Origin: Candidatus Latescibacterota bacterium
Lineage (GTDB): Bacteria; Latescibacterota; UBA2968; UBA8231
Length of the DNA: 64,000 nucleotides
Direction of reading: 5' to 3'
Assembly (NCBI GenBank): GCA_965221775.1
Contig: CBDCSU010000004.1
Location: forward strand, 736,001-800,000
In this document: positions 8,632 through 25,084 of the stretch, in pieces
Layout of the letters: each line of letters starts with the position of its first letter
Numbering within the stretch: the first letter of the stretch is position 1
The notes under the pieces: model-generated
Seen by the model: only the letters and a program-made list of their open reading frames with translations
What the model was told of the DNA's origin: nothing
Database searches by the model: none
Translations under genes and position numbers: made by a program

Positions 8632-9069
8632 TCAGCCGGTGACGGCGGCGTGCATCTCCGTCCAGTCGTCGAGGTTGTTGAGGTTCACCGCGTCGAGGAT
8701 CGAGCCGTCGTCGGCGACGCCGGCGGCCGACAGGATCGAGCCCCGGGTGTCGTCGTCGTGGTTGTACCCGCGGATGGCGGCGTTGGAGGCGTCGACCTCG
8801 TCCTGGGGGATGCTGCCGCCCCGCTGCTGCACGACCCAGGCCTCGAACTGGGCATAGGTGGGCAGGTTGGACTTGATGTAGCCCACGGCGGCGTCGCGGT
8901 CGATGCCGAGGCCGTCGAGGACCATCTGGTCGAAGCCCTGGCCGCACTCGTCGTAGCCGTCCTCGAGCTGTCCCTTGGCGCTCAGCAGCACCTTCGACCA
9001 CAGCCTCGGCAGGTGGATGGCCCCGAGGGGACCGGCCAGGTCCGAGCTGATCAGTGGAATCGTGCCCAT
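8632..9069 (-). CDS. DUF5069 domain protein
   Basis: GPLGAIHLPRLWSK...GY...GFDQMVLDGLG...PTYAQFEAWV pattern. Confidence 0.75.
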   Translation of the reverse strand: MGTIPLISSDLAGPLGAIHLPRLWSKVLLSAKGQLEDGYDECGQGFDQMVLDGLGIDRDAAVGYIKSNLPTYAQFEAWVVQQRGGSIPQDEVDASNAAIRGYNHDDDTRGSILSAAGVADDGSILDAVNLNNLDDWTEMHAAVTG

Positions 9070-9128
9070 GTTCGTTCCTCCAATGCGGGCCGTGAGGGGA
9101 GGCCCTGTAAGGGGTTGAGGGGGGCGGA

Positions 9129-9196
9129 GATATAGGACGGCCCGGTTTCGGGCGTCAAGCGGCGGGATTGCGGGCCACCCGGCGGCCGGCTATGCT
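9129..9196. promoter_or_regulatory. Divergent sigma70-like promoters for DUF5069 gene (-) and uxuA-like gene (+)
   Basis: Plus: TTGCGG(9168-9173)-17-TATGCT(9191-9196). Minus: TTGACG(9158-9153)-18-TATATC(9134-9129). Confidence 0.5.
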
Positions 9197-9238
9197 GCAC
9201 GCCGCCCGGGATACCACCCGATACCAAGGAGCGCGGAG

Positions 9239-10219
9239 ATGCACGTCGGCACGCAGCAGTTCAGCACCAGCGATCACGATCTGGAGTTCCTCGCCCGCCA
9301 CGGCGTGACCGCCAAGAACGAGAACAACATCACCTTCCACCGCGAGTACGGGTGGGACGTGAAGGAGCTGATCGAGAAGAAGGAGAGGTGCGAGAGCTTC
9401 GGCGTCGACATGGAGATGGTGGCCATCCCCGTCCACTCCCTCGGCGTCGACGGCTGCAGCACCCCCCACTACATGCGCGGCCGCTACGACGAGGGCGACA
9501 AGGAGATCGAGCTGGTCTGCAACATGATCCGCCAGGCCGCCGAAGCCGGCATCCCGGCGGTGAAGTACTTCCTGTGCGAGATGGAGAACCAGCGCACCGA
9601 GTCGGTCCCCCTGGGGCGGGGCAACTCGCGCTACAGCACCTGGGACCTGGAGAAGGCCGACGACTCGCCGCGCTACGACGAGCCGCTCACGGCGGAGCAG
9701 AACTGGGAGCGCATCACCTACTACCTGGAACGGGTCGTGCCGGTGGCCGAGGAGTGCAAGGTGCGCATGGCCTGCCACCCCTGCGACCCGTGGCTGCCGC
9801 CGGGCTTCAAGGGTGTCGACCGCGTCCTCGGCGGCCCCGAGGGCTTCCGGCGCTTCATCACCATCTGCGAGAGCGACTACCACGGCGTCAACCTGTGCCT
9901 CGGCTGCATGGCCGAGGCCTCCACCGACCCGCGCAACGAGGTGCCCGAGATCATCCGCTACTTCGGGTCGCGCAACAAGATCTTCCTCTGCCACTTCCGC
10001 AACATCGTCGGGGGGCGCAACAAGTTCCAGGAGGTGTGGCCCGACGAGGGCGTCATGAGCATGCACCGCAACATCCGCGCCCTGCAGGAAGTGGGTTACC
10101 CGCACATGGTCGTGCCCGACCACGCCCCCGGCCACCCCGACTCCGACGCCTACCAGGCCTGGGCCTACGAGTTCGGCTACATCCAGGCGATGATCCAGTC
10201 GGTGACCGACGAGGACTGA
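9239..10219 (+). CDS. uxuA: Mannonate dehydratase (UxuA) family protein
   Basis: IRQAAEAGIP, YYLERVVPVAEE, ACHPCDP (HPDDP-like), HFRN, PDHAP; substrate not certain. Confidence 0.75.
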   Translation: MHVGTQQFSTSDHDLEFLARHGVTAKNENNITFHREYGWDVKELIEKKERCESFGVDMEMVAIPVHSLGVDGCSTPHYMRGRYDEGDKEIELVCNMIRQAAEAGIPAVKYFLCEMENQRTESVPLGRGNSRYSTWDLEKADDSPRYDEPLTAEQNWERITYYLERVVPVAEECKVRMACHPCDPWLPPGFKGVDRVLGGPEGFRRFITICESDYHGVNLCLGCMAEASTDPRNEVPEIIRYFGSRNKIFLCHFRNIVGGRNKFQEVWPDEGVMSMHRNIRALQEVGYPHMVVPDHAPGHPDSDAYQAWAYEFGYIQAMIQSVTDED

Positions 10220-10238
10220 GCCCCGGGAGGCGCCGCCT

Positions 10239-12770
10239 CTACAGGGCGGAGGCGCGCCTCATCAACTCGGCCCGCGCCTCGGCGAAGAGGGCGATCAGCC
10301 GCGCCCGCACCGCCTCGTCGCTGAAGACGCCGATGCGCTCGGCCCAGGCGGTGCCGCCCTCCATGTGGGTGAGCAGGTACTCGCCGTCGGCTTCCTCGAA
10401 GGCGCCCCTCCGGCCGACGTCGACGTAGACCGGCGACGAGTGGGCCATCACCGGGCCGGCGTCGGTGGCGTACGGCCCCCAGCAGCGCGCCGCGATCCAG
10501 CAGGGTTCCCCGCACTCGATCTCCGTCTGGAGCGTGACCGAGCGCTCCCCTTCCGCGGCCGTCTCCCGCTCCCGGGGGACGCCGTTGACGACGAGTTGCA
10601 CCGCCGTCAGGGGCCAGACGCTCCAGGCCCGGGCGTCCACCTCCACGGTCCCGCCGTTGCCGGGCAGGTCCAACTGCCCGCCCATGGGCACCCCGTCGAC
10701 GCGCAGGTCGATCATGGCGCCGGTGCTGGCGAAGGTCTGGCCGCTGCGCACCGCCCGGCACCAGTTGTCGAAGGTGAACTCCCGGCCCTCGGGGATTCGC
10801 GCATAGGTCCGCGAGCCCCCGAGGATGCGGCCGTTCGACATCTTGTCGGTGCCGCCGACGATGGGCAGCTTCTGGCCCACGTTCAGCCAGCGGTAGTAGC
10901 CGCGCTCGCCCTGGCCGATCTCCTCCCCTTCCCAGACCCAGCACATCTCCGCCGCGTCGGCCTGGCCGAGGACGATGTTGGCGGCGTTCTCGAAGTCGGG
11001 CACCGGCATGTGGGGCATGATCACCAGCCCGCCCTGGGCGCGGCACTCCTCGGCCCAGTCCGCCATGAGCGCCTGGATCTCGCCGCCGACCCAGTCCTCC
11101 TGCGGCCCGCCGGTGCACATGGGGGCCACCAACTCGCGCAGACCCAGGAGGCTGATGTGGCCGAGGACGTGCTGGCGGTTCTCCTGGCTCACGTAGACGA
11201 GGTGGTTCTCCGTCGACGTGGGGGCCACGCCGCCGGTGAACTCCTCCCAGCTGGTGAACAGCCGCCCCCACTGGCTGGCGAGCAGGTGCACCACGTTCAG
11301 GTCCTCCCCCTCGGCCTCCAGCACGCTCGACTGGGAGGAGAGGAAGTGGACGTGGGTGTCCCCGGAGAAGAAGCCCTCGGCCTTCATGTCGAAGGCGCGC
11401 TTCACGGGCAGGGTCAGGTGCCGCTGCCCAGGCTTGATCTCCAGTTGGCGGCGGGTGGGCTCGTACTCGAAGCCGCGCGCCACCTCGACGAAGCTGGCCC
11501 CCACGGGCAGCTCGATCTGGCAGGTGCCGTCGATGTAGGCGTAGGGGGTGCCGCCCGTCTTGCAGTCGCCCCCCATGTCCTCGAACCAGGCGATGTTGAC
11601 GTCGGCCTGGTGGCCGTGGGGAGCGAGGTAGACGCCCTCCTTGGAGCGGAAGTGGACGCGGCAGCCCACGGGATCGCCCGTGTCGGCGTCGACGACGCGG
11701 ACGTGCACCCACTGGCGGCCCTCGCCGTCCACCACCTGCACGCGCACCGGTCCGGACTCGGCCTCGCCCCGCTCCAGGACCTCGCCCCAGCGGAAGCCGG
11801 CACCGGCTTCTCCGGCCTTCACCTCCAGGTTGGCCCGCGGCGAGCCGTGGACCTCCACCTGCCCTCCCGGGCCGACCCGCTGTCCGCCGCGGCCCCAGCC
11901 GGTCTCGTCGGTGGTGAGGAAGTCGCCGCCGGGGACGAAGAGATCGTCCTGGCGCGCCACCACCCCGCGGTCGACGCCGATCTCCGGGGCCGCCTCTCCT
12001 CCCTCCACCGTCACCGCCACGGTGCGCCGCATCTCCCAGTGGAAGGGGTCGTCCTCCTCGTTGCACAGGGTGACCGCGCCGAGGACGATGGGTGTCGCCG
12101 TCGCCGCCTCGAGGACGACCTCGGCGATCTCCGCCTCCGGGCGGTCCACGGCCAGGTCGAAGAGCCACCAGCCCGTCAGGTCGCCGCCCATGGCGCCCGG
12201 GCCGCCGGCGGGACGGCCGTCGGCGCGGTCGTAGCGCGAGTACACGCCGACCTGGGCGCCGCCGTAGCCGACGGCCGGCTCGTGGAGGCTGGTGGAATCG
12301 AAGTGGCGGCAGTTGCGGCAGAGGAAGGGATGGTGTCCCCAGGGGGCGTTGATGTCGTGGATCTCCCAGCGCCGGCGCAGGGGCTGCGCCGTCTCGGAGC
12401 CGTCGGCGAAGCGGACGACGTACTGGCCGAGGCTCTCCCCCGCCCCCTCGAGGGTGGCCCACTCCCCGTCCACCGGAGCGCAGGCGTGGGCGAAGAGCAG
12501 CCGCCGCGCCGCGGCGCCCACGGGGATGACGACCCGCGACTCGGTTCCCTCCCCGGCCGCGGCGACCACGAAGCGGCGCTCCGCGTCGGTTTCCGCCAGA
12601 TGGAAGGGGACGCCGAGGAAGAGGCACTCGCCCGACGGCAGTCCGTCCAGCGGCGTCGCGTGGGGGTCGTCGCCGCGGGGCCACAGCCAGCGGCCGCCGC
12701 CGAGATCGACGTTGCGGGTTCCGGCGTTGCACAGGCCGGACAGGTCCAGGGGCTGGAAGGAGTCGTTCAT
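10239..12770 (-). CDS. CehA/McbA family metallohydrolase (PHP-like)
   Basis: GFFSGDTHVH, QENRQHVLGH, GGTDKM, AVRSGQTFASTG, WIAARC..AHSSPVYV. Confidence 0.82.
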   Translation of the reverse strand: MNDSFQPLDLSGLCNAGTRNVDLGGGRWLWPRGDDPHATPLDGLPSGECLFLGVPFHLAETDAERRFVVAAAGEGTESRVVIPVGAAARRLLFAHACAPVDGEWATLEGAGESLGQYVVRFADGSETAQPLRRRWEIHDINAPWGHHPFLCRNCRHFDSTSLHEPAVGYGGAQVGVYSRYDRADGRPAGGPGAMGGDLTGWWLFDLAVDRPEAEIAEVVLEAATATPIVLGAVTLCNEEDDPFHWEMRRTVAVTVEGGEAAPEIGVDRGVVARQDDLFVPGGDFLTTDETGWGRGGQRVGPGGQVEVHGSPRANLEVKAGEAGAGFRWGEVLERGEAESGPVRVQVVDGEGRQWVHVRVVDADTGDPVGCRVHFRSKEGVYLAPHGHQADVNIAWFEDMGGDCKTGGTPYAYIDGTCQIELPVGASFVEVARGFEYEPTRRQLEIKPGQRHLTLPVKRAFDMKAEGFFSGDTHVHFLSSQSSVLEAEGEDLNVVHLLASQWGRLFTSWEEFTGGVAPTSTENHLVYVSQENRQHVLGHISLLGLRELVAPMCTGGPQEDWVGGEIQALMADWAEECRAQGGLVIMPHMPVPDFENAANIVLGQADAAEMCWVWEGEEIGQGERGYYRWLNVGQKLPIVGGTDKMSNGRILGGSRTYARIPEGREFTFDNWCRAVRSGQTFASTGAMIDLRVDGVPMGGQLDLPGNGGTVEVDARAWSVWPLTAVQLVVNGVPRERETAAEGERSVTLQTEIECGEPCWIAARCWGPYATDAGPVMAHSSPVYVDVGRRGAFEEADGEYLLTHMEGGTAWAERIGVFSDEAVRARLIALFAEARAELMRRASAL

Positions 12771-13747
12771 CCGTGTCCTCCGCCGGCGAGCACGCCGGCA
12801 TAGTAGTCCAGGGGAAGGTTGCCGCCGCTGAGGACGCCCACGACCCGCTTCCCCGCCAGACGCGAACCCAGACGCGCCGCCGCCGCCAGGGGCGCCGCCG
12901 CCGCGCCCTCGGCCACGAGCCGGGCCTCGCGGGCATACCAGCGGATCGCCTCCTCGATCTCGCCGTCGTCCACGAGGACGAGGTCGTCGAGGAGGCGCCA
13001 GAGGATCTCCAGGGGCATCTGAAAGGGGACGCGCGTGGCCAGGCCCTCGTGGGCGGTTCTCATCTCCGCCTCCACGTCGAGGCGGCGCTGGGTCCAGGCG
13101 CGCCAGACCGCGGGGGCCGCCGAGGACTGCACGCCGATGACCTCGATGGCCGGGTTCCGGGCCTTGGCCACCAGGCAGGTCCCGGCGGCGCCGCTGCCGC
13201 CGCCCACCGGCACGAGTATCACCTCCGTCTCCGGCGCCGCCTCTAGGATCTCCACCGCCATGGTGCCGGCGCCGGCGATCAGCTCGGGCTCGTTGGCCGA
13301 GTGCACGTAGCGGCGGCCCTCCCGGCGGGCGACCTCCTCCACCTCGACCCGGGCCTCATCGAAGTCGCGGCCGTGGCGGCGCACCTCGGCCCCGAGGCGC
13401 TCCATGGCCTCCAGCTTTGCGGGGTTGGCGCCCTCGGCCGGGGCGTAGATCACCACCGAGGCGCCGAAGCGGGTGCCGGCCCAGGCCATGGCCTGACCGT
13501 GGTTGCCGGTGCTGGCGCTGATCAGGCCGCGGGACCGCTCCTCTTCGGACAGGTGCCCCACCACGTTGAGGGCGCCGCGCACCTTGAAGGCACCCACGGG
13601 CTGGAAGCTCTCGCACTTGACCCGGTAGTCGCAGCCGAGCCGCTGCGACAACGCCTCGCTGCGCACCAGGGGCGTGGGCTCCAGGTGATCGGCGATGAAG
13701 GCCCGGGCCGCGTCGACATCGGCCGCCGTGGGAGGAGGCCGGGTCAC
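12767..13747 (-). CDS. PLP-dependent threonine/serine dehydratase family enzyme (no ACT domain)
   Basis: KCESFQPVGAFKVRGA, SASTGNHGQA, PVGGGSG, LSGGN; GTG start overlaps upstream stop. Confidence 0.88.
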   Translation of the reverse strand: MTRPPPTAADVDAARAFIADHLEPTPLVRSEALSQRLGCDYRVKCESFQPVGAFKVRGALNVVGHLSEEERSRGLISASTGNHGQAMAWAGTRFGASVVIYAPAEGANPAKLEAMERLGAEVRRHGRDFDEARVEVEEVARREGRRYVHSANEPELIAGAGTMAVEILEAAPETEVILVPVGGGSGAAGTCLVAKARNPAIEVIGVQSSAAPAVWRAWTQRRLDVEAEMRTAHEGLATRVPFQMPLEILWRLLDDLVLVDDGEIEEAIRWYAREARLVAEGAAAAPLAAAARLGSRLAGKRVVGVLSGGNLPLDYYAGVLAGGGHG

Positions 13748-14523
13748 GGCCGGTGCTCGCGCACGGCGGCCAGCGCTTCGCCCAGGTGGCGCCGGTAGAG
13801 GTCGAGGTCGAGGCCGACGGCGAGGATGCGGTAGCCCTTGTCGAGCAGCTCGCGCGCCTCCTCGGCGGTGGCGGCGAGGCGGCCCAGGGCCTTGCCCTCG
13901 GCCTCGCAGGCGCGGCGCACTTCGTCCTCGGCGGCGAGGTAGTCGGGGTGGTCGAAGAGACCCGGACGGCCGCTGAAGTTGGCCAGGTCGAACTGGCCGA
14001 TCCAGAGGACGTCGATCCCCTTGACGGCGGCGATCTCCGGGGCGTTGCGGACCCCCCAGGGGCTCTCGATCTGGGCGATCACCAGGGTGCGCTCGTTGGC
14101 CTGCCGCATCTTCTCCTCCAGCGGCTCGCCGGTGCGGTAGTCGTCGTGGGCGACGCCGAAGGCGGCTCCGCGGCGCCCGGTCAGGGGATAGCGGCAGAAC
14201 CCGGCCAGGCTCCGGGCCTGGTCGGCGTCGTCGACCATGGGCGCCATGACGCCGAGGGCGCCGGCGTCGAGGACCCGCGCCGCGAAGTGGTACTCCGCCG
14301 TGGGGATGCGCACGAAGGGCACCGCGCCGGTGCAGCCGCAGGTGGCCACGAGGCCGCGGATCGTCTCCATCGACCAGGCGGTGTGCTCCATGTCGAAGAG
14401 CACGAACTCGGCGCCGGCGTTGTCGGCGAGACGGGCCACGCCGGTGGTGCCGAACTCCATCACCATGGTGCCCAGGGACCGGCCGCCCTCCTGCAGGCGG
14501 CGCCTCACGGGGTTCTCTCTCAT
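13744..14523 (-). CDS. HpcH/HpaI class II aldolase
   Basis: FDMEHT, RVLDAGALGVMAPMV, YPLTGRRG, IAQIES, WIGQFDL. Confidence 0.9.
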   Translation of the reverse strand: MRENPVRRRLQEGGRSLGTMVMEFGTTGVARLADNAGAEFVLFDMEHTAWSMETIRGLVATCGCTGAVPFVRIPTAEYHFAARVLDAGALGVMAPMVDDADQARSLAGFCRYPLTGRRGAAFGVAHDDYRTGEPLEEKMRQANERTLVIAQIESPWGVRNAPEIAAVKGIDVLWIGQFDLANFSGRPGLFDHPDYLAAEDEVRRACEAEGKALGRLAATAEEARELLDKGYRILAVGLDLDLYRRHLGEALAAVREHRP

Positions 14524-15566
14524 TCGCCCCTCCTGCGGCGGGCGCAGGCATCCAACTTCGCCTGGAAGCACTCCGTCTCCAGCACCTCGGCGTTGACCAC
14601 GTGATCCGGCGCCCGGCCCTCGGAGACGGCGAGGATGCCGGCGAAGGCGCTCTCCCCCATGAGGCGGAAGCTCTCGTCGGTCCAGGCCAGGGAGTGGGGC
14701 GCCACGATGACGTTGTCCTGCTCTAGGAGCGGGTTTCGCGGATCGACGGGCTCCTCCTCGAAGACGTCGAGGGCGGCGCCGGCGACGGCGCCCTCCCGCA
14801 GCGCCGCGGTGAGGGCCGCCTGATCGACGATGGGCCCGCGGGCGACGTTGATCAAATGGGCCGTGGGCTTCATCCGCTCCAGCTCCGCGGGGCCGATGAG
14901 GTGGCGGGTCTCCGCGGTCAGGGCGCAGCAGACGAGGACGAAGTCGGCCTCGTCGAGCAGCTCCGGCAACGGCGCCAGCCGCACCCCCAGCCCGGCGGCG
15001 GCCTCGGCGTCGGCGAAGGGATCGGCGGCGACCAGGGTCATCCCGAAAGGCGCGCACAGACGCGCGATCTCGCCGCCGATGTTGCCCAGCCCCACCAGCC
15101 CCAAAGTTCGCCCCCGCAGGCCGAGGCCCATGTAGTCGGCCTTCTCCGCCCAGCGCCCCTCCCGCGTGAGCCGGTCCTTCAGGGGCAGGCGGTGGGCCAG
15201 GGCCAGGAGGAAGGCCATGGCGGCGCTGGCCACGGGGCGGCGCACGCCGTCGGGGGTGATGGTCACCGCCACCCCGGCGCGGGTGCAGGCCTCCAGGTCC
15301 ACCGAGTCGTAGCCGACGCCGATGCGGGCCACCACCGCCAGGCGCCCGGCCCCCTCCAGGGTGGCGGCCGAGATCCGCGGACTCAGCACCAGCAGGGCGT
15401 CGCAGCCGGCGGCGGCCTCGGCCGGCACCTCCTCCGCCCCCGCGCCCAGGTTGTGCCACTCCACGCCCCTGGCGCGGTCGAGGACGGAGAGGTCGATGTC
15501 GGGAAAGGCCTGCCCGCCTTCGGGGCGCAGGAAGTCGACGGTGAGGCCGACGCGGAACATCCTCAT
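14520..15566 (-). CDS. D-isomer-specific 2-hydroxyacid dehydrogenase
   Basis: RIGVGYD, GLVGLGNIG, INVARGPIVD, LDVFEEEP, APH. Confidence 0.92.
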   Translation of the reverse strand: MRMFRVGLTVDFLRPEGGQAFPDIDLSVLDRARGVEWHNLGAGAEEVPAEAAAGCDALLVLSPRISAATLEGAGRLAVVARIGVGYDSVDLEACTRAGVAVTITPDGVRRPVASAAMAFLLALAHRLPLKDRLTREGRWAEKADYMGLGLRGRTLGLVGLGNIGGEIARLCAPFGMTLVAADPFADAEAAAGLGVRLAPLPELLDEADFVLVCCALTAETRHLIGPAELERMKPTAHLINVARGPIVDQAALTAALREGAVAGAALDVFEEEPVDPRNPLLEQDNVIVAPHSLAWTDESFRLMGESAFAGILAVSEGRAPDHVVNAEVLETECFQAKLDACARRRRGE

Positions 15567-16303
15567 CCTCCCCCGGAGCGGATCCGGGCCTCGGCCTCGC
15601 TCAGAGCCGCGGCGTTGTCCCAGGCGGCGATGCGCTCTGCGCGGGCCTGCTCGGTCTCTCCGCTCAGCCGCCCGGCCGCGGCGATGAGGGCGGGCAGGGC
15701 GCGGACCACGTTGTCGACGATCGTCACCGTGGCGGCTCGGGCCGTGCGCGACAGCGGGTTCAGGTCGACGGTCAGGACCTGCCGTCCCATGCGCCGGAGC
15801 GCCTCGCAGCGGTCGCCGTCCTCCAAGGGGACGAAGATCGCGTCCGCCTTCAGGATGCCCTCCGGATGGACGAGCCGGCGGTTCGAGGCGAGGCCCTCCA
15901 GGACGGTCCCGTCGACGGGCCGCAGCACCCGCTCGGCGCCGTGGGCCTGCAGGTGGGCGGCGACGGCTGCCTCGCGCTCGCGGGAGCCGTGGAAGATGTT
16001 GACCTCCAGGGGGGCGCCGGTCTGCCGCGAGAGCCGCACCAGCTCGCCGGGGACCAGGGCGGCGGCGTTGCCGTTCACCGAGAGCACCGGATGCTCCGCC
16101 GCCAGCAGCCAGGCCGCCGCCGCCTCGCAGGCGCGCAGGGCCCAGGGGCCGCTCTCCTCCCCCAGCAGATAGTCGTAGGCCTCCCCCCGGCCGTGGGCGA
16201 TCAGCCCGTGGGGCGAGGTGATGCCCGCCTCCACGCCGGCCACGATCCGGTCCCGCGTCAGCAGGGAGGCGCGCCTCGGGTGGTCCTCGGGGACGTCGGT
16301 CAC
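15563..16303 (-). CDS. Archaeal-type 4-phosphopantoate--beta-alanine ligase (phosphopantothenate synthetase, PPS)
   Basis: PEDHPR..SL..R, GLIAHGRGEAYDYLLGE, SVNGN.AAL, EVNIF, VPLEDGDRCEAL, DLNPLSRTA, DNVVRA: hallmark PPS (COG1701) motifs. Confidence 0.93.
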   Translation of the reverse strand: MTDVPEDHPRRASLLTRDRIVAGVEAGITSPHGLIAHGRGEAYDYLLGEESGPWALRACEAAAAWLLAAEHPVLSVNGNAAALVPGELVRLSRQTGAPLEVNIFHGSREREAAVAAHLQAHGAERVLRPVDGTVLEGLASNRRLVHPEGILKADAIFVPLEDGDRCEALRRMGRQVLTVDLNPLSRTARAATVTIVDNVVRALPALIAAAGRLSGETEQARAERIAAWDNAAALSEAEARIRSGGG

Positions 16304-17148
16304 GGGTCGATCAGGCCGACGCGGCGCGTCGACAGGGCGGTCTCGGTGGAGCCCGGGAAGGGCGTGTCGCTGAAGACGGCGTTTCCGAGCATGATCATCG
16401 AGGCCTCGCCGCCCCCGCCGGTCACCTCTTCGACGGCGGCGAGCACCCCCTCGTGGGCCATGAGGCCGCTGCCGGCGGCGAAGGCGCGGGACTCGCGGAT
16501 GACGCTGCCCAGGTCCAGCGAAGTCGCATCGCGGAGACGGGCGAGGGCTGCCAAGGCTTCGTCGGCGGCAGCGTTGATCCGCCGGCGCCGCTCCGGGTCG
16601 GAGAGGATGTCCCGCGTGCGGATGGGGCCGAAGTAGCGGTAGTGGATCGGCGCCCCCGCCGCCAGGGGCATGCGCTGCGCCGCGAGAGGGTCGCCGGCGA
16701 CGAGCTTCACCAGGCAGCCGCCGTGGTACTGGGCGCAGACATCGCCGAGGCCGGTGAGGTTCTCCACCTCGGCCACGTGGGCGGCGGTGGCCAGGGCGCG
16801 CTCCGACAGGCGGAGGTCTAACAGGGCGTTGGCGGCGTAGGCCGCCGCCAGGGACGAGGCGCCGCTGAGGCCGAAGCCGCTGCTCAGGGGCAGGGGCGTC
16901 TCGATCTCGACGGCCAGCCGCTGGCCCGGCGCCACCCGCTCCAGCACCGCCGCCACCGTGGGGAACTCGATCCCCTCGCCGTTGAAGGTGACGCTGGCGG
17001 CCCCGGCGCGGCGGACGGAGGCGGTGGCCCCCTCGCGCACGGTGAAGCCGAGGCCGAGGGAGTGCATCCGCGCCGGGTCGTCGTGGGGGATCACCTTGAA
17101 GACGCCGGAGATGTTCCCCGGCGCGAAGGCGGACGCCGCCTCAGGCAT
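16300..17148 (-). CDS. Archaeal-type pantoate kinase (GHMP kinase, PoK)
   Basis: AFAPGNISGVF, SLGLGF, PLSSGFGLSGA GHMP loop, AHVAEVENLTGLGDV.AQ..GG, SMIMLGNAVF; adjacent to PPS. Confidence 0.88.
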   Translation of the reverse strand: MPEAASAFAPGNISGVFKVIPHDDPARMHSLGLGFTVREGATASVRRAGAASVTFNGEGIEFPTVAAVLERVAPGQRLAVEIETPLPLSSGFGLSGASSLAAAYAANALLDLRLSERALATAAHVAEVENLTGLGDVCAQYHGGCLVKLVAGDPLAAQRMPLAAGAPIHYRYFGPIRTRDILSDPERRRRINAAADEALAALARLRDATSLDLGSVIRESRAFAAGSGLMAHEGVLAAVEEVTGGGGEASMIMLGNAVFSDTPFPGSTETALSTRRVGLIDP

Positions 17149-17839
17149 GGACGGCCTCCGGCATCAGCCGCTGTTGGCGCAGCCAGCCCGGCAGTTGCGC
17201 GACGCCGTCGAGCAGGGCGAGAGGCGCGTAGGGGGCGAAGGCCGGCGACTGCGTGGTGCCGCTGAGGACGGCGGTGAAGCGGATCCCGCCGCGGCGCGCC
17301 GCCTCGGCGTCGGGGAGACTGTCCCCCACGTAGAGGGAGTCGCCGGCATCTACCCCGAGACGCTCCAGGGCCAGGTGCAGGCAGCCGGGATCCGGCTTGT
17401 GCTCGGTGACGTCCTCCGCCCCGACGACGGCCCCCACGAGGTGGCGCAGCCCCTCGCGGTCGAGGATGCCCTCGATGCGGTAGCGGTACTTGGTGGAGGC
17501 AATGCCGCAGACCACGCCCCGGGCGCGGAGATCCGCCAGCACCCCGGGGACAGCGTCGTAGACCACGGTGCCCGCCGCCATCACCCGGTCGGCGCGCTCG
17601 AGGAAGAGCCTCCCGAACTCCTCGCTGCGCGGACGCTCGGCCTCGCCGTTGAGGGTGGCCACGATGTCGGGCACGGAGAGGCCGATGGTGCGCCGGATCT
17701 CCTCCTCCCCGGACAACTCGAGCCCCATGCGCCGCTGGGCATGGCGCACGCAGTCGATGACGCCCACGGCGGAATCCGCCAGGGTATAGTCGAAGTCGAA
17801 GAGAACCGCCTTGAGCGGCGTCGGACCCATGGCGGTCAC
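17141..17839 (-). CDS. HAD-superfamily phosphatase (phosphoglycolate phosphatase-like)
   Basis: LFDFDYTLADS (DxD), GIASTK, HKPDP, YVGDSLPDAEAA; start GTG 17839 or ATG 17830. Confidence 0.88.
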   Translation of the reverse strand: MTAMGPTPLKAVLFDFDYTLADSAVGVIDCVRHAQRRMGLELSGEEEIRRTIGLSVPDIVATLNGEAERPRSEEFGRLFLERADRVMAAGTVVYDAVPGVLADLRARGVVCGIASTKYRYRIEGILDREGLRHLVGAVVGAEDVTEHKPDPGCLHLALERLGVDAGDSLYVGDSLPDAEAARRGGIRFTAVLSGTTQSPAFAPYAPLALLDGVAQLPGWLRQQRLMPEAVHA

Positions 17840-18621
17840 GCCGGCGCGCCGGCGTTGATGCCCAGCCCTCGGCGGTAGGCCTCCAGGGAGAGCAGGTCTT
17901 CGGGCGCCACGTTGCCGATGTTGACCCGGGGGCCGAAGCGGTCGATCAGATCGCGGCGCATGGCGTGCACATGGTGCTCCTCCACCCCCGGGATCCAGGG
18001 TCCCGGAAGCTCGAACATCACCTTCTCCAGGCCCACGGCGGCGACGATCCCGTCGATGTCGGCCGCGGTCTCCGCGCCGCCGTGGATCAACTCCACCGCC
18101 TCCACCAGAAGCAGGCTGGCCCCCGCCTCCATGCACGCCTTCGCGTCGTCGGTCAGCGGAACCGCGTTGGCCAGACCCTCCTTCTTCCCCACCTCACCGA
18201 GGACCCTCAGCCCGAACTCCTCCACCGCCCGGGCGATGATCCGTTCCTTCCAGCTCAGGCTCACCGGGGCGATGTTGTCGGAGACCTCCACCCAGCGGTA
18301 GCCCGCTTCGACGCAGGCCGGCAGGTAGCGGTCGAGATAGCCGTGGACCTCGGCGTACTCCAGGAACTGCCCCCCCGGGAAGGGCTCCACGTCCCACGAC
18401 AGGTAGCGGTCGATCTTCTCCGTCAGCAGCTCCGGCGGGTGCAGCCGCGACAGGCCCACGGCGATCTTGGCGAAGTCGAAGTGGTCGGCCCCCATGTCGG
18501 TGAGATCCCGCTGCCGGCGGGGGCCGATCCCCCAGTCGATGACCATGGTCAGCCCCGAGGCGCGGGGCTTGGCGGTGCGCTCGCCGGCCAGATGTCCGTC
18601 GAGACCTTGGAACGGATGCAA
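17836..18621 (-). CDS. comA: Phosphosulfolactate synthase (ComA) family protein
   Basis: KPRASGLTMVIDWG, DFAKIAVG, PGG..LE, EVSD, EVGKK, VMFELP, NIGNV, LEAYRRGL; TTG start. Confidence 0.85.
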   Translation of the reverse strand: MHPFQGLDGHLAGERTAKPRASGLTMVIDWGIGPRRQRDLTDMGADHFDFAKIAVGLSRLHPPELLTEKIDRYLSWDVEPFPGGQFLEYAEVHGYLDRYLPACVEAGYRWVEVSDNIAPVSLSWKERIIARAVEEFGLRVLGEVGKKEGLANAVPLTDDAKACMEAGASLLLVEAVELIHGGAETAADIDGIVAAVGLEKVMFELPGPWIPGVEEHHVHAMRRDLIDRFGPRVNIGNVAPEDLLSLEAYRRGLGINAGAPA

Positions 18622-18773
18622 TGCGGGTCCTTCGTGGTGGTGTTCGGAAGCGGGCTAACCTACGAAAGGGCCCTTACCTCGTCACGGCACTTGCCGGGCC
18701 GCAGACAGGACGGCGATGTTACAGGCCGTCCCGGCGACGAACCCTCTGCGCGCTGTTCCCCGAGGAGCCGACC

Positions 18774-19682
18774 ATGACCACCACAGCCGACGTGCAAACC
18801 CTTCCCCAGCGCCTCCTCGGCAAGACCGGCGAGCGCGTCCCCGTCCTCGGCCTGGGCACCGCCTGCGGAGGACTGGGCATGCCCGACGCCGAGGCGATCG
18901 AGCTCTACGAGGCGGCCATCGACCGCGGCGTAACCTACCTCGACACCGCCCCCGGGTACGAGCGCGCCCAGCGGCAACTCGGCCACGTGGTGCCCCGCCG
19001 CCGCGACGAGATCTTCCTGGTCACCAAGTCCCCCACCGCCGACGGCGCCGAAGCCGAACGCCTGCTGGAACAGAACCTGCGCGACCTCGGCACCGACGCC
19101 GTCGACCTGTGCTACGTCCACTCCCTCGGCAACTACGATCCCGACCAGGTCCTCGCCCCCGACGGCTCCCTCGCCGGCCTGCGCGAAGCCCAGAGGCGGG
19201 GACTGACGCGCTACGTCGGCTTCACCGCCCACCACAGGACCGGCAGCTCCGAGCGCGTCCTCCGGGAGGCGGAAGTCGACGTCATCATGGTCTCCCTCAA
19301 CTTCGCCGACCACCACACCTACGGCTTCGACCGCACCGTGCTGCCCTTGGCCGCCGAGCGCGACGTCGGCGTGGCGGCCATGAAGGTCTACGGTGGCGCC
19401 GAGGCGATGGAGTACCACACGAAGGAGGGAGAGGACCAGCGCCCCTCCGCCCTTCAGGCCAGCGAGCCCGCCTTCGACCACGAACGCGCCCTGCGCTGGG
19501 CCCTCGGCCTGGCGGGAGTGAACGTCGCCGTCATCGGCATGTACTCGGAGGAGGAGCTGGACCGCAACATCGAGTGGGTGCGCCGCTGGCAGCCGCTGAC
19601 GGCGGAGGAGGAGACGCAGCTGCTGGAGGAGGGCCGTCGCATCGCCCGCTCCTGGGGCGACCACTACGGGGATACCACATGA
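18774..19682 (+). CDS. Aldo/keto reductase
   Basis: LGKTGERVPVLGLG, GVTYLDTAPGY, IFLVTK, DLCYVH, AAMKVYGG; GAGGAG RBS. Confidence 0.92.
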   Translation: MTTTADVQTLPQRLLGKTGERVPVLGLGTACGGLGMPDAEAIELYEAAIDRGVTYLDTAPGYERAQRQLGHVVPRRRDEIFLVTKSPTADGAEAERLLEQNLRDLGTDAVDLCYVHSLGNYDPDQVLAPDGSLAGLREAQRRGLTRYVGFTAHHRTGSSERVLREAEVDVIMVSLNFADHHTYGFDRTVLPLAAERDVGVAAMKVYGGAEAMEYHTKEGEDQRPSALQASEPAFDHERALRWALGLAGVNVAVIGMYSEEELDRNIEWVRRWQPLTAEEETQLLEEGRRIARSWGDHYGDTT

Positions 19683-19714
19683 CAAAGCCCATCGGGACAT
19701 ACACAGTCCGCATG

Positions 19715-19779
19715 TTGTGACGCTGTAGACTGAACGGTTACACTTGAGGGGCAACACCAGCGTTGAGTCTGGTTTGCCC
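19715..19779 (+). promoter_or_regulatory. Putative promoter and inverted-repeat operator of the MNT-HEPN module
   Basis: TTGTGA(19715)-18-TACACT(19739), then imperfect IR gggcaacaccag...ctggtttgccc before AAGGAGGA. Confidence 0.4.
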
Positions 19780-19795
19780 GCAAGGAGGAGCCCCA

Positions 19796-20113
19796 TTGAG
19801 CGCCAGAATCGACATTCCCAGAGACGAGATAGCTGCCTTTTGCCAGCGCCACCGCATCCGCCGTATGGCCCTGTTCGGCTCCGTGCTGCGCGACGACTTT
19901 TCGCCTGAGAGCGACGTGGACTTGCTCGTGGAATTCGAGCCAAACACGCGTATAGGCTACATCGGCTTGGCAGGGTTGGAGATTGAGCTGGGGAAAGTTC
20001 TGGGACGAAGGGCTGACTTGCACACCTTGGAAGGAGTTCGCAGCAGCCGCAACTGGCTCCTCCGGGACGAGATACTGGGTTCGAGAGAGGCGGTATATGA
20101 GCAGGCGCGATGA
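19796..20113 (+). CDS. MNT family nucleotidyltransferase (antitoxin)
   Basis: LFGSVLRDDFSPESDVDLLVEF (GS..DxD); TTG start after AAGGAGGA. Confidence 0.92.
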   Translation: MSARIDIPRDEIAAFCQRHRIRRMALFGSVLRDDFSPESDVDLLVEFEPNTRIGYIGLAGLEIELGKVLGRRADLHTLEGVRSSRNWLLRDEILGSREAVYEQAR

Positions 20114-20441
20114 TCAGATCAGCTTGGTGGACATGCTGAACCACGCACGGGAAGCGGTCGCCCTTTTGGGCGAGGCAGGCCCGGATGACCTCGCAGGAGA
20201 TCGGATCCGGGAACTCGCACTACGGAAGTTGGTGGAGATCGTTGGAGAAGCGGCCAATCGCGTTTCGGAACAGACACGCCAGTCCCATCAGGCAATACCC
20301 TGGCCCCAGATTGCTGGAATGCGCAACCGGCTGATTCACGGCTACGATGACGTCAGTCTGGGTAGATTGTGCGATACCATCAAGGAGGACCTGCCTCCCC
20401 TCATTGACCAACTACAAGCCAGCGTCGGCGAACAGGAGTAG
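20097..20441 (+). CDS. HEPN/DUF86 family ribonuclease toxin
   Basis: EIVGEAANRVS, IPWPQIAGMRNRLIHGYD (RX4HXY); overlaps the MNT gene. Confidence 0.92.
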   Translation: MSRRDDQISLVDMLNHAREAVALLGEAGPDDLAGDRIRELALRKLVEIVGEAANRVSEQTRQSHQAIPWPQIAGMRNRLIHGYDDVSLGRLCDTIKEDLPPLIDQLQASVGEQE

Positions 20442-20473
20442 TGGTGCCGCTCCACAAGCCACCGGCTTGAGCA

Positions 20474-20852
20474 CCGACCACCAAACCTACGGCTTCGACC
20501 GCACCGGTTGCCCCTGGCCGCCGAACGTAAGGTCGGCATGGCCGCCATGAAGGTCGACGGCGGCTCCGAGGCGATGGAGTACCACACCAAGGAGGACGAG
20601 GACGGGCGCCCAACCGCACTGTGGGCCAGCGCGCCCGCCTTCGACCACGAACGAGCCCTGCGCTGGGCCCTCGGACTGCCGGGCATCGGCATCGCCGTGA
20701 TCGGCATGTACTCGGAAGAGGAGATGGACCGCAACATCGAGTGGGTGCGCCGCTGGCAGCCGCTGACGGCGGAGGAGGAGACGCAACTGCTGGAGGAGGG
20801 CCGCCGCCGGATCGCCCGCTCCTGGGGCGACCACCACGGGGACTTGGTGTGA
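20474..20852 (+). pseudogene. Displaced diverged 3' fragment of the aldo/keto reductase gene
   Basis: Direct repeat of about 19306-19672 (AAMKV.GG.EAMEYHTKE...RNIEWVRRWQPLTAEEETQLLEEG) with a frameshift near 20506. Confidence 0.9.
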
Positions 20853-21094
20853 GGATCTCCGATCTGCGGCGGCAGTCCGCGGAGAGCCGCGCCGACTTCG
20901 TCAGGGAAATCGCCGACGACGTGAGCCGGCGAATCCGCGAGGGGCTGGTGGCCGAGCCCGAGGCGCGGGAGCTGGCCGCGGGACTGCGCTTTCAGGCGGG
21001 ACTGCTGATGCCCGAGAGGCTGGAGGCGTTCGACCGCATCTACGGAGCCCGCTTCGAGCGCCTGATCCGCCAGTTTCTGCGGGGGGAGGGCTGA
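20849..21094 (+). CDS. Small hypothetical protein (81 aa)
   Basis: GTG overlaps TGA of AKR fragment; host-like codon use; C-terminal FDRIYGARFERLIRQF. Confidence 0.65.
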   Translation: MRISDLRRQSAESRADFVREIADDVSRRIREGLVAEPEARELAAGLRFQAGLLMPERLEAFDRIYGARFERLIRQFLRGEG

Positions 21095-21206
21095 CCACCA
21101 AGGCGCCGGTCACCATGCCGTCGATTAGAGCGAAGACACTGCGGCACGACTGCGAGCTTCATCTTGTGGATCTCGCTTACGCGTCTTCCAGCATTCGCGC
21201 AGGAGG

Positions 21207-24935: not shown

Positions 24936-25084
24936 TAAGCCACCTGTCTCGGGGCGGGATCACCCCACAAGAGTTTCGCGCCAGCGAAACTCGCAACAAA
25001 GCCGCGCAGCGGCTTTGCGATCTCCTGATATTGGCGCTCCCGCTTCGTCTGTCGGCGGTCCTCCGCCACTAAGCCACCTGTCTC
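24885..25084. repeat. 66-bp diverged direct repeat (24885-24950, 25019-25084) flanking a 68-bp triple-hairpin insert
   Basis: Both copies hold the RBS region and codons 1-17 of the transporter, with 5 synonymous differences; the spacer has 9-bp stems gagtttcgc/gcgaaactc and caaagccgc/gcggctttg. Confidence 0.92.

What the first reader, a model, noticed from the sequence alone, without database searches (positions are those of the whole stretch)
10239..18621. Archaeal CoA module (PoK + PPS) embedded in an 8-gene coupled bacterial operon
Seen: comA, HAD, pantoate kinase, phosphopantothenate synthetase, D-2-hydroxyacid dehydrogenase, HpcH aldolase, Thr-dehydratase-like and CehA/McbA all overlap stop-to-start (six 4-nt overlaps, one 8-nt). 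Known: bacteria normally use PanC then CoaA/CoaX, while archaea phosphorylate pantoate first (PoK, PPS). I recall PoK/PPS being reported in Ca. Poribacteria, so the pair alone may not be new. Codon use looks host-like, which suggests an old transfer. I do not recognise this gene company, and panB/panE/coaBC are not nearby.
Basis: partly seen in the sequence, partly recalled or inferred. Interest (0 to 1): 0.85.

Follow-up and report, generated by a model that had tools for sequence, protein, structure and literature searches.

The report
Archaeal-type CoA genes in a bacterium
This bacterium makes the coenzyme A precursor phosphopantothenate with the two "archaeal" enzymes instead of the usual bacterial pair, a swap already published for one other bacterial group, and the other six genes of the operon look like neighbours by history rather than partners in that pathway.

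Summary
Eight minus-strand genes (10239-18621) overlap stop-to-start, six by 4 nt and one by 8 nt.

PPS is a clear 4-phosphopantoate--beta-alanine ligase. It scores 326 bits on NF010324 (cut-off 227) and E 4.8e-64 to PDB 3wdk. The kinase matches pantoate kinase best, in NCBIfam and in PDB 6jbc, but lies below the equivalog cut-offs.

The genome (96.8% complete) has no PanC, CoaX or CoaA hit. PanB, CoaBC and CoaE lie on the same contig. Of 61 related genomes, 28 hold PPS, 32 hold PanC, none holds both and one holds neither. CoaX follows PanC. PoK/PPS is therefore most likely the only route here.

Bacterial PoK/PPS is already published for sponge Poribacteria (PMC7883664).

All eight genes lie together only within the genus. 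In other genera only PoK-PPS is constant. A PanC-bearing sister genus has comA-methyltransferase-ThrDH without PoK-PPS, and the ComA, ThrDH and CehA orthologues do not track PPS. The operon is best read as a composite: a transferred cassette set into an older neighbourhood. It is a new member of a known kind, of modest interest.

The parts
17836..18621 (-). ComA-family gene (phosphosulfolactate synthase family), first gene of the operon, 261 aa, TTG start
   Evidence: Pfam PF02679 6e-51, 173.7 bits. NCBIfam arch_ComA equivalog 161.7 bits, below its cut-off of 280. Single copy in the genome. Found in 27 of 61 relatives, with or without PPS.
17141..17839 (-). HAD-IA phosphatase (phosphoglycolate-phosphatase-like), 232 aa; overlaps comA by 4 nt and PoK by 8 nt
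   Evidence: HAD_2 7.6e-33. PGP_bact 107.6 bits, below its cut-off of 180. Lies directly upstream of PoK only in genera g1, g8 and g6.
16300..17148 (-). Pantoate kinase (PoK) homologue, GHMP kinase, 282 aa
   Evidence: GHMP_kinases_N 1.2e-12. The best NCBIfam models are the two pantoate kinase equivalogs (146.3 and 65 bits, cut-offs 380 and 500); the next family, homoserine kinase, scores 37 bits. The best solved structure is T. kodakarensis pantoate kinase 6jbc, E 4.8e-11. Single copy. Adjacent to PPS in 37 of 80 public loci and in all 26 PPS-bearing loci taken from relatives' genomes.
15563..16303 (-). Phosphopantothenate synthetase (PPS, 4-phosphopantoate--beta-alanine ligase), 246 aa, GTG start
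   Evidence: PF02006 6.3e-66. NF010324 326 bits, above its cut-off of 227. NF041123 293.4 bits, against a cut-off of 300. Aligns end to end with solved PPS 3wdk (E 4.8e-64) and 4mb0. Single copy. Lies inside the PPS tree.
14520..15566 (-). D-isomer-specific 2-hydroxyacid dehydrogenase, 348 aa
   Evidence: 2-Hacid_dh_C 7.1e-58. The best NCBIfam models (glyoxylate reductase 245 bits, PGDH 243 bits) are all below their cut-offs. One of 13 paralogues in the genome. Orthologues of 65% identity or more occur only in g1, g8 and g6.
13744..14523 (-). HpcH/HpaI-family class II aldolase, 259 aa
   Evidence: PF03328 6.1e-34. HpaI, GarL and RhmA models score 113-116 bits, all far below their cut-offs. One of 7 paralogues in the genome.
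12767..13747 (-). PLP-dependent (PALP) threonine/serine-dehydratase-like enzyme without a regulatory domain, 326 aa, GTG start
   Evidence: PALP 2.9e-75. Threonine ammonia-lyase and dehydratase models score 261-264 bits, below their cut-offs. It is the only hit of its kind in the genome at E <= 1e-10. Orthologues of 57-66% identity also occur in the PanC-bearing genomes G022, G033 and G029.
10239..12770 (-). 843-aa protein: N-terminal ~465 aa without any Pfam family, plus a C-terminal CehA/McbA-type metallohydrolase domain (aa 466-784)
   Evidence: NF038032 149.1 bits, above its cut-off of 80; no Pfam hit. 3077 homologues were found, all uncharacterised. The atlas clusters are likewise unnamed. 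58 of 61 relatives hold it, including PanC genomes at 58-66% identity.
18771..19682 (+). Divergently transcribed aldo/keto reductase (context, not part of the operon)
   Evidence: PF00248 1.7e-26. A 60-64% orthologue lies near comA in G010 and G014.
9239..10219 (+). Convergent UxuA-like TIM-barrel gene (context, not part of the operon)
   Evidence: PF03786 1.4e-36. 9 paralogues in the genome. The UxuA-like gene next to PPS in some Poribacteria is only 30% identical.

Best explanation
**What it is.** PoK and PPS are this bacterium's working, and probably only, route from D-pantoate to 4'-phosphopantothenate. PoK phosphorylates pantoate, and PPS then ligates beta-alanine to 4-phosphopantoate. 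Pantoate comes from PanB plus a reductase, most simply IlvC. The product passes to ordinary bacterial CoaBC and CoaE.

**How it got there.** The pair is a horizontally mobile two-gene cassette of a PPS clade shared by several bacterial phyla and DPANN archaea. In part of this bacterial family it displaced PanC and CoaX. In the ancestor of the window's lineage it was set into an older neighbourhood (comA ... ThrDH-like ... CehA-like). In this genus the stretch has been compacted into one eight-gene, translationally coupled operon.

**The other six genes.** They are co-expressed with the cassette but belong to other, unresolved metabolism. This is probably sulfolactate or 2-oxoacid chemistry for ComA, HAD, the dehydrogenase and the aldolase.

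**Shown versus inferred.** Shown: family membership, the gene content of the genome, the either-or distribution with PanC, and the pattern of synteny. Inferred: enzyme activities, co-transcription, the direction of transfer and its number of events.
For: **Identity.**
- PPS scores above the curated subfamily cut-off and aligns over its full length to solved PPS.
- PoK matches pantoate kinase best, both among NCBIfam models and among solved structures.

**Need for the pair.**
- The own genome (96.8% complete, 6 contigs) gave no hit for PanC, CoaX (type III PanK) or CoaA (type I PanK).
- PanB, CoaBC and CoaE lie on the same contig C4 as the window. IlvC (KARI_C) lies on C5.

**Replacement in relatives (61 genomes, own included).**
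- PPS is in 28, PanC in 32, both in 0 and neither in 1 (G014).
- CoaX is in 31 of the 32 PanC genomes and in 0 of the 28 PPS genomes.

**Composite origin.**
- Outside genus g1 only PoK-PPS is constant.
- The PanC-bearing genus g14 has comA-[321-aa methyltransferase-like]-ThrDH-like(58%)-HDOD. Its CehA orthologue lies about 21 kb away on the same contig. It has no PoK-PPS.
- In g5 the cassette lies before comA; in g17 it lies after comA.
- ComA is in 9 of 32 PanC genomes and in only 17 of 28 PPS genomes.
- CehA orthologues of 58-66% identity are in 8 PanC genomes.

**Mobility.**
- All named bacterial PPS plus DPANN sequences form one starred clade (97*).
- A single clade of the 19 PPS sequences of this family is rejected (p-AU 0.0022).

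**Age.** Codon use is host-like.

**Expression (weak).** Contigs of a sponge metatranscriptome run, about 92% alike, bridge the PoK/PPS and HAD/PoK junctions.
Against: - No enzyme activity has been measured for any bacterial PoK or PPS. I know of none and found none in the searches.
- PoK is far below the NCBIfam equivalog cut-offs (146 against 380), and PPS is just below its equivalog cut-off (293.4 against 300).
- The search for type II PanK (PF03630) had no positive control and says nothing.
- Absence calls rest on a MAG with 7.75% estimated contamination.
- The recurrence of ComA, ThrDH-like and CehA-like genes beside PoK-PPS in several genera, in different orders, could reflect selection for linkage rather than decaying ancestry.
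- The dehydrogenase orthologue occurs only in genera that lack a PanE-type gene. This fits a role in pantoate synthesis.
- The RNA contigs may include DNA carry-over, and a contig across two genes does not prove one transcript.
- The direction of transfer and the root of the PPS tree are not established.
Confidence: 0.7

Rival explanations
1. Extended pantoate module. The D-2-hydroxyacid dehydrogenase that overlaps the PPS stop codon is a non-orthologous ketopantoate reductase, giving D-(R)-pantoate. It completes the branch that lacks PanE. The aldolase and HAD might also serve pantoate supply or control.
For: - No ApbA_C (PanE-type) hit in the own genome, and only 1 of 10 genomes of the genus has one.
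- Dehydrogenase orthologues of 59% identity or more occur only in g1, g8, g6 and g20. These genera lack ApbA_C, except G009.
- The 4-nt overlap with PPS.
- D-specific stereochemistry matches D-pantoate (established chemistry; my inference).
- Poribacteria also lack a classical reductase (PMC7883664, main text).
Against: - IlvC is present and is the accepted substitute (PMC7883664).
- Many PanC-bearing relatives also lack ApbA_C, so no new reductase is required.
- g17 and g2 lack both ApbA_C and a close dehydrogenase orthologue.
- In g6 the orthologue lies on another contig.
- It is one of 13 paralogues in the genome.
- The dehydrogenase near PPS in some Poribacteria is orthologous to a different paralogue: 60% to C4:581500, against 43% over a part of the operon copy.
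- The genera are kin, so the pattern amounts to about four independent observations at most.
Confidence: 0.15
2. Sulfonate sub-pathway. ComA, the HAD phosphatase and the 2-hydroxyacid dehydrogenase copy the logic of the first three steps of coenzyme M synthesis (PEP + sulfite to phosphosulfolactate, then sulfolactate, then sulfopyruvate). The aldolase and PALP enzyme work on the product. PoK-PPS merely shares the transcript. This refines the best explanation rather than contradicting it.
For: - A ComA-family hit is followed directly by a phosphoglycolate-phosphatase-like HAD.
- comA is linked to the ThrDH-like gene without PoK-PPS in g14.
- In g17 a second PALP enzyme follows; its N-terminal sequence looks ACC-deaminase/D-cysteine-desulfhydrase-like to me, which no tool tested.
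Against: - ComA is below the archaeal equivalog cut-off (161.7 against 280).
- (2R)-sulfolactate has the L-configuration (my reading of the CIP rules, recalled chemistry), so a D-specific dehydrogenase is the wrong type.
- HAD and the dehydrogenase are missing beside comA in g14, g17 and g5.
- No sulfopyruvate decarboxylase or sulfite source was looked for.
Confidence: 0.25
3. The PoK/PPS homologues and their neighbours make a pantothenate-like or sulfonated secondary product rather than CoA.
For: The gene company is unusual. PoK scores below the equivalog cut-offs.
Against: - The genome would then have no route to 4'-phosphopantothenate, yet it keeps PanB, CoaBC and CoaE.
- PoK and PPS are single-copy.
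- PPS and PanC are strictly either-or in 60 of 61 genomes.
- The neighbours are not conserved with the pair.
Confidence: 0.04
4. Assembly or binning artefact. The PoK-PPS stretch comes from an archaeon or another bacterium and was mis-binned into this genome.
For: Estimated contamination is 7.75%.
Against: - The window lies inside contig C4, which also carries PanB, CoaBC and CoaE, with hits out to position 1,173,194.
- GC3 and codon use match the genome.
- The same arrangement is found in 7 of 10 genomes of the genus, some in 1-2 contigs.
Confidence: 0.01

Closest known systems
PoK/PPS of sponge-associated Candidatus Poribacteria (Entoporibacteria), Thomes & Lescure 2020, Genome Biol Evol, PMC7883664 (main text read; supplements closed)
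   Same: Bacterial genomes with archaeal-type PoK and PPS, no PS (PanC) and no PanK. CoaBC and DPCK are of the bacterial type. There is no classical ketopantoate reductase, and KARI is proposed instead. Here the findings are the same: PanC, CoaX and CoaA were not found, CoaBC, CoaE, PanB and IlvC are present, and ApbA_C is absent.
   Different: - The lineage differs: MAGs deposited as Gemmatimonadaceae or Ca. Latescibacterota.
- PPS is 54-69% and PoK 54-57% identical to the poribacterial proteins (best tblastn segments).
- Here the pair sits inside an eight-gene overlapping operon. In Poribacteria PPS stands with PoK or alone, and none of the other six genes is orthologous there.
- The either-or pattern with PanC/CoaX is seen here within one family: 27 of 36 genomes with PPS, 8 of 36 with PanC.
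Archaeal PoK and PPS of Thermococcus kodakarensis (solved structures 6jbc/6jbd and 3wdk/3wdl/3wdm; T. onnurineus PPS 4mb0)
   Same: Same two families and the same inferred order of reaction. PPS aligns at residues 1-242 to 1-243 of 3wdk (E 4.8e-64). PoK aligns at 6-260 to 4-262 of 6jbc (E 4.8e-11).
   Different: - The host is bacterial.
- The rest of the CoA pathway is bacterial: CoaBC fusion domain and CoaE.
- PoK is strongly diverged.
- The nearest named archaeal PPS sequences are from Woesearchaeota and Nanoarchaeota MAGs (52-61% identical), which fall inside the clade of bacterial sequences.
ComA-ComB-ComC steps of coenzyme M biosynthesis in methanogens (recalled from established literature, not read here)
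   Same: A ComA-family gene is followed by a phosphatase gene, and a 2-hydroxyacid dehydrogenase lies in the same operon.
   Different: - The phosphatase is HAD-type, not ComB-type.
- The dehydrogenase is of the D-2-hydroxyacid family, not ComC-type (recalled).
- ComA is below the archaeal equivalog cut-off.
- The trio is not conserved outside g1, g8 and g6.

Membership tests
Phosphopantothenate synthetase (PPS; PF02006 / NF010324 / NF041123) | Profile score above the curated cut-off | tested here: met
   PF02006 221.7 bits (cut-off 26.4). NF010324 subfamily 326 bits (cut-off 227). The archaeal equivalog NF041123 scores 293.4 bits, just under its cut-off of 300.
Phosphopantothenate synthetase (PPS; PF02006 / NF010324 / NF041123) | Full-length likeness to enzymes with solved structure and known activity | tested here: met
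   Residues 1-242 align to 1-243 of 3wdk_A (E 4.8e-64) and of 4mb0_A (E 2.1e-62).
Phosphopantothenate synthetase (PPS; PF02006 / NF010324 / NF041123) | Falls inside the PPS tree, with poribacterial and archaeal sequences | tested here: met
   It lies in a starred clade (95* of 82 rows; 97* of 50 rows) with Poribacteria, other bacteria and DPANN archaea. Unnamed representatives form the outgroup.
Phosphopantothenate synthetase (PPS; PF02006 / NF010324 / NF041123) | Substrate-binding residues of the solved enzyme conserved | not tested
   I did not have the list of residues. It is in Kim et al. 2013, which I did not read, and in the closed supplement of PMC7883664.
Phosphopantothenate synthetase (PPS; PF02006 / NF010324 / NF041123) | ATP-dependent ligation of beta-alanine to 4-phosphopantoate | not testable with these tools
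   Needs an enzyme assay.
Pantoate kinase (PoK; GHMP kinase; NF040725 / NF041122) | Score above the curated equivalog cut-off | tested here: inconclusive
   146.3 bits against 380 (methanogen model) and 65 bits against 500 (Thermoplasmata model). Both models are lineage-specific equivalogs, so missing their cut-offs does not exclude the family. They are the two best models, and the next GHMP family, homoserine kinase, scores 37 bits.
Pantoate kinase (PoK; GHMP kinase; NF040725 / NF041122) | Best solved relative is a pantoate kinase | tested here: met
   6jbc_A pantoate kinase E 4.8e-11. Next come homoserine kinase at 1.3e-4 and mevalonate kinase at 1.8e-3.
Pantoate kinase (PoK; GHMP kinase; NF040725 / NF041122) | Conserved pairing with PPS, and absence of pantothenate kinases | tested here: met
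   Adjacent to PPS in 37 of 80 public loci and in all 26 PPS-bearing loci taken from relatives' genomes. CoaX and CoaA were not found in the own genome. CoaX is in 0 of 28 PPS genomes. Type II PanK: the search had no positive control.
Pantoate kinase (PoK; GHMP kinase; NF040725 / NF041122) | Phosphorylation of D-pantoate | not testable with these tools
   Needs an enzyme assay.
ComA, (2R)-phospho-3-sulfolactate synthase (PF02679 / TIGR03849) | Profile score above the curated cut-off | tested here: inconclusive
   Pfam family met (173.7 bits against 25.2). The archaeal equivalog was not met (161.7 against 280). It is a family member, but the same reaction is not shown.
CehA/McbA metallohydrolase (NF038032) | Domain model above the cut-off | tested here: met
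   149.1 bits against 80, at residues 466-784 only. The N-terminal 465 residues match no family.
Single translationally coupled operon | Same strand, start codon overlapping the upstream stop, no internal terminator | tested here: met
   Seven overlaps of 4 or 8 nt. No terminator-like site in 9000-20000. One transcript is not shown; RNA-library contigs bridge two of the seven junctions.

The most novel reading that the evidence does not exclude
The D-2-hydroxyacid dehydrogenase coupled to the PPS stop codon is a new, non-orthologous ketopantoate reductase. The core of the operon (HAD-PoK-PPS-dehydrogenase, shared by genera g1 and g8, with the dehydrogenase elsewhere in g6) would then be a self-contained module from ketopantoate to phosphopantothenate. 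Free pantothenate is never formed in this route. The HAD phosphatase could therefore be what releases pantothenate (vitamin B5) from 4'-phosphopantothenate for a sponge host.
Probability: 0.12. Interest if true: 0.6.

Novelty: new member of a known kind. Interest (0 to 1): 0.35.

Why it matters
- **Scope of the swap.** The 'archaeal' order of steps (phosphorylate pantoate first, then add beta-alanine) is not an oddity of Poribacteria. It has fully displaced PanC and PanK in most sampled genera of another bacterial family. The same PPS clade reaches Gammaproteobacteria, Verrucomicrobiota and Methylomirabilota. A sister clade holds a Planctomycetes MAG and a cultured Sorangium.
- **Annotation and modelling.** Genomes like this one are easily mis-scored as pantothenate auxotrophs.
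- **Use as a marker.** The pathway is weak as a marker that separates bacteria from archaea.
- **Symbiosis.** Such cells never make free pantothenate, which bears on ideas about vitamin B5 exchange with hosts.
- **What is not there.** The eight-gene operon does not appear to reveal a new pathway.

Tried and rejected
**Neighbours supplying beta-alanine.** Rejected. PanD is missing from the own genome, but it was found in only 4 of 61 relatives, and most PanC-bearing relatives lack it too. Its absence is class-wide and not tied to the operon.

**CehA-like protein as a pantothenate amidase for salvage in cells without PanK.** Rejected. Orthologues of 58-66% identity occur in 8 PanC/CoaX genomes, 58 of 61 relatives hold the protein, and the family is spread over many phyla.

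**Co-transfer of PoK-PPS with the UxuA-like gene between Poribacteria and this lineage.** Rejected. The two UxuA-like proteins are only 30% identical, and the own genome has 9 paralogues.

**Poribacterial dehydrogenase near PPS as orthologue of the operon dehydrogenase.** Rejected.

**First AU test (p 7.7e-5).** Discarded as flawed. Rows of unknown affiliation (L031, L062, L063, L072, P0121 and others) were forced outside the group. I repeated the test on 50 rows of known label.

**Conserved PoK residues.** By eye in the alignment, His124, Glu127, Asp136 and Ser95 stand opposite His131, Glu134, Asp143 and Ser104 of 6jbc. That these residues matter is recalled only. The structure paper is not in the library, so I make no claim from it.

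**tRNA-Tyr called by ARAGORN at 10201-10273.** Not supported by Rfam at gathering score or at E <= 1. I treat it as a false positive.

**Type II PanK search.** Nothing rang in any control genome, so it is uninformative.

**Naming the unnamed PPS representatives.** This failed. One homologue search with P0138 gave names for the sister clade only.

**Promoter and terminator scan.** Nothing found. This is no evidence either way in a 70% GC genome.

**Literature.** In the held library, 17 papers hold 'pantoate kinase' + 'phosphopantothenate synthetase' + 'bacteria', and 13 papers since 2020 hold 'phosphopantoate' or 'pantoate kinase'. Only PMC7883664 deals with bacterial PoK/PPS. None of the 20 listed papers holds 'pantoate kinase' together with Latescibacter* or Gemmatimonad*. 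Subscription journals are not covered. The supplements of PMC7883664 are closed; its abstract mentions 'other related organisms', and the supplements may name further bacteria.

Full report
**Observation.** Eight ORFs lie head to tail on the minus strand between 10239 and 18621. With starts that agree with the N-termini of orthologues in related loci, each start codon overlaps the upstream stop. The overlaps are comA/HAD 4 nt, HAD/PoK 8 nt, and 4 nt for each of PoK/PPS, PPS/dehydrogenase, dehydrogenase/aldolase, aldolase/ThrDH-like and ThrDH-like/CehA-like. The only doubtful one is comA/HAD, where an ATG lies 9 nt further in. GC3 is 0.92-0.97, inside the range of long ORFs of the genome (0.919 +/- 0.033). 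That reference set was chosen by GC3, so the comparison is partly circular. No promoter-like or terminator-like site was found in 9000-20000.

**Identity of the pair.** PPS scores 221.7 bits on PF02006 and 326 bits on NF010324 (cut-off 227), and 293.4 bits on the archaeal equivalog (cut-off 300). It aligns end to end with the solved Thermococcus enzymes 3wdk and 4mb0, at E 4.8e-64 and 2.1e-62. The kinase is a GHMP kinase. Its two best NCBIfam models are the pantoate kinase equivalogs, at 146 and 65 bits, both far below their lineage-specific cut-offs. The next family scores 37 bits. Its best solved relative is T. kodakarensis pantoate kinase 6jbc, at E 4.8e-11. Both genes are single-copy in the genome.

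**Is the pair needed?** The window is C4:736001-800000 of a 5.36-Mb assembly in 6 contigs, 96.8% complete with 7.75% contamination.
- Not found: PanC, type III PanK CoaX, type I PanK CoaA, PanD and PanE-type ApbA_C.
- Found on the same contig as the window: PanB, CoaBC and CoaE.
- Found on contig C5: IlvC.
- The type II PanK search had no positive control and is uninformative.

So only the two middle steps are of the archaeal type, as described for Poribacteria.

**Relatives.** In 61 genomes (own included) of the same class:
- PPS is in 28, PanC in 32, both in none, and neither in one (G014, 90% complete).
- CoaX is in 31 of the 32 PanC genomes and in none of the 28 PPS genomes.
- Inside the window's family, 27 of 36 other genomes have PPS and 8 have PanC (genera g7, g10, g14, g16).
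- All 24 genomes of the three other families have PanC.
- PanD was found in only 4 of 61, so its absence is class-wide.

These genomes are kin, so the counts are not independent events. The either-or pattern is nonetheless complete.

**What is published.** Thomes & Lescure 2020 (PMC7883664; I read main text parts 1-2; the supplements are closed) report PoK and PPS in sponge-associated Poribacteria. They found no PS, PanK or classical KPR there, bacterial CoaBC/PPAT/DPCK, and proposed KARI as the reductase. In the held library this is the only paper on bacterial PoK/PPS.

**Wider distribution and tree.** A scan of one genome per species found 187 confirmed relatives, of which the best 80 were kept.
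- The nearest (94-70% identity) are MAGs deposited as Gemmatimonadaceae or Ca. Latescibacterota.
- Then come many Poribacteria (54-69%, best tblastn segments).
- A few are Gammaproteobacteria/Thiotrichales, one Verrucomicrobiales and one Methylomirabilia.
- Five are Woesearchaeota or Nanoarchaeota MAGs.

The whole family is small: 513 representatives at E <= 0.001 among 1.84 billion proteins. In trees, all named bacterial sequences plus the DPANN sequences form one well-supported clade (95* in 82 rows; 97* in 50 rows). The poribacterial sequences sit among those of the window's family. Holding the family's 19 sequences together as one clade is rejected, at p-AU 0.0022. An earlier test was flawed and is discarded. 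I therefore do not claim a direction of transfer. A neighbouring clade holds a Planctomycetes MAG and Sorangium sp. So ce381.

**The gene company.** All eight genes in order on one contig are seen in 7 of 10 genomes of the genus. The other 3 are cut by contig ends but are consistent. In the deeper members of the genus (about 70% identity), extra genes are inserted. An S15-type hydrolase lies between comA and HAD. An HDOD gene, a sulfatase and a small ORF lie between ThrDH-like and CehA-like. Only the HAD/PoK/PPS overlaps persist there.

In the other genera of the family the arrangements are as follows.

| Genus | Arrangement around PoK-PPS |
|---|---|
| g8 | HAD-PoK-PPS-DH-HpcH-ThrDH |
| g6 | comA-x-HAD-PoK-PPS-ThrDH-..-CehA |
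| g17 | comA-PoK-PPS-ThrDH |
| g5 | PoK-PPS-comA-x-ThrDH |
| g12 | PoK-PPS-ThrDH |
| g15 | PoK-PPS-ThrDH-x-CehA |
| g9 | PoK-PPS-(x)-CehA |
| g3 | PoK-PPS-[GNAT]-CehA |
| g13 | PoK-PPS-[GH2]-HpcH-[HDOD]-CehA |
| g2 | comA-x-PoK-PPS (contig ends) |
| g11, g4, g18 | PoK-PPS alone (g4 and g18 on short contigs) |

Genus g14 has PanC and CoaX and no PPS. It carries comA, a 321-aa methyltransferase-like ORF that starts at the comA stop, a 58% ThrDH-like orthologue and the same HDOD gene. Its CehA orthologue lies about 21 kb away on the same contig.

Phyletic patterns agree with this picture.
- ComA is in 17 of 28 PPS genomes and 9 of 32 PanC genomes.
- ThrDH-like orthologues of 57-66% identity are in three PanC genomes.
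- CehA-like orthologues are in 58 of 61 genomes.

The simplest reading is that comA ... ThrDH-like ... CehA-like is an older neighbourhood of this family. The PoK-PPS cassette landed in it, and in this genus the stretch has been compacted into one coupled operon.

**What the neighbours might do.** The dehydrogenase (13 paralogues in the genome), the aldolase (7) and the CehA-like protein (4) belong to multi-copy families. ComA, HAD and the ThrDH-like gene are single.

One pattern favours a link to pantoate. Dehydrogenase orthologues of 59% identity or more occur only in genera without a PanE-type gene: g1, g8, g6 and g20, with G009 as an exception. A D-specific enzyme would give D-pantoate.

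Against it:
- IlvC is present.
- Many relatives lack PanE anyway.
- g17 lacks both a PanE-type gene and a close dehydrogenase orthologue.
- The poribacterial dehydrogenase near PPS is orthologous to a different paralogue.

I put this reading at about 0.15. The sequence ComA, then HAD, then dehydrogenase recalls the first steps of coenzyme M synthesis. However, ComA is below the equivalog cut-off, and the stereochemistry of a D-specific dehydrogenase does not fit (2R)-sulfolactate (my reading of the chemistry). The CehA-like protein belongs to a large, uncharacterised family whose N-terminal half matches no known domain.

**Expression.** Near-identical DNA is present in a sponge metagenome run that I laid (X5). 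In a sponge metatranscriptome run (X20), 92 contigs of 90-100% likeness fell on 29 of 30 bins of 9000-20000. They include a 1007-nt contig over 15927-16929, which crosses the PoK/PPS junction, and a contig over 16955-17510, which crosses the HAD/PoK junction. These are assembled contigs of a relative (about 92% alike) from an RNA library. They are a weak hint of transcription and do not prove a single transcript.

**Verdict.** The sequence observation is confirmed. The PoK/PPS assignment is well supported, and the genome content makes the pair the likely sole route to 4'-phosphopantothenate. Bacterial PoK/PPS is already published, so this is a new member of a known kind. Two things add modestly to what is in print:
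- the complete either-or replacement of PanC/CoaX within a second bacterial family;
- evidence that the cassette has moved among phyla.

The striking eight-gene company is specific to the genus and is best explained by history, not by a shared pathway.

Noticed in passing
window 10201-10273 (-): ARAGORN calls a tRNA-Tyr (anticodon at position 32) that overlaps the stop of the CehA-like gene. Rfam finds no tRNA there at gathering score or at E <= 1. The stretch holds a GC-rich hairpin between the two convergent genes, z-score -1.06. Probably a false positive.
   Followed up: yes
P0328, P0325: PPS homologues of 55% identity to P0138, a clade next to the window's, are named from a cultured myxobacterium (Sorangium sp. 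So ce381, on a 12.98-Mb contig) and from a Planctomycetes MAG. PPS in bacteria therefore reaches well beyond Poribacteria, and a culturable host may exist for experiments.
   Followed up: partly
P0130 (521 aa), P0137 (529 aa), P0154 (408 aa): Long representatives carry the PPS match in the N-terminal ~240 residues. These may be fusions of PPS with another domain, perhaps PoK.
   Followed up: no
L011:4510-6099, L101:1852-3453 and cluster c38 (L012, L089, L096): A 529-533-aa protein with no Pfam family lies directly upstream of comA in several genera, including the PanC-bearing g14. It is absent from that position in the window.
   Followed up: partly
window 10239-12770 (-), residues 1-465: The N-terminal half of the CehA-like protein matches no Pfam or NCBIfam family. 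Yet the whole protein is 58-97% identical across the class and has 3077 homologues. It is a large, conserved, uncharacterised family.
   Followed up: partly
G007 locus (L007/L098) and G006, G009, G035: In some long-read assemblies of relatives the operon genes show in-frame stops or split matches. ThrDH-like is in two pieces in G007, and single TGA stops occur in G006, G009 and G035. PoK is only 65% identical over a part in L007. These may be frameshifts from assembly errors or real decay.
   Followed up: no
G027:C1:1261184-1261363: A PPS-bearing genome holds a 60-residue PanD fragment with two in-frame stops. It looks like a remnant.
   Followed up: no
window 20001-22000: GC falls to 0.60 here, against about 0.70-0.75 around it. 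I did not examine it.
   Followed up: no
window 22263-24959 (-) and 25083-30920 (-): Two very long ORFs with high GC3 (898 and 1945 codons, stop to stop) lie downstream of the region. They were not annotated.
   Followed up: no
L022:1316-3241 and cluster c2 (loci, mostly labelled Poribacteria): In many poribacterial loci PPS is followed not by the window's genes but by a 641-aa DUF6785+DUF6784 protein. Cluster c2 occurs in 38 loci.
   Followed up: partly
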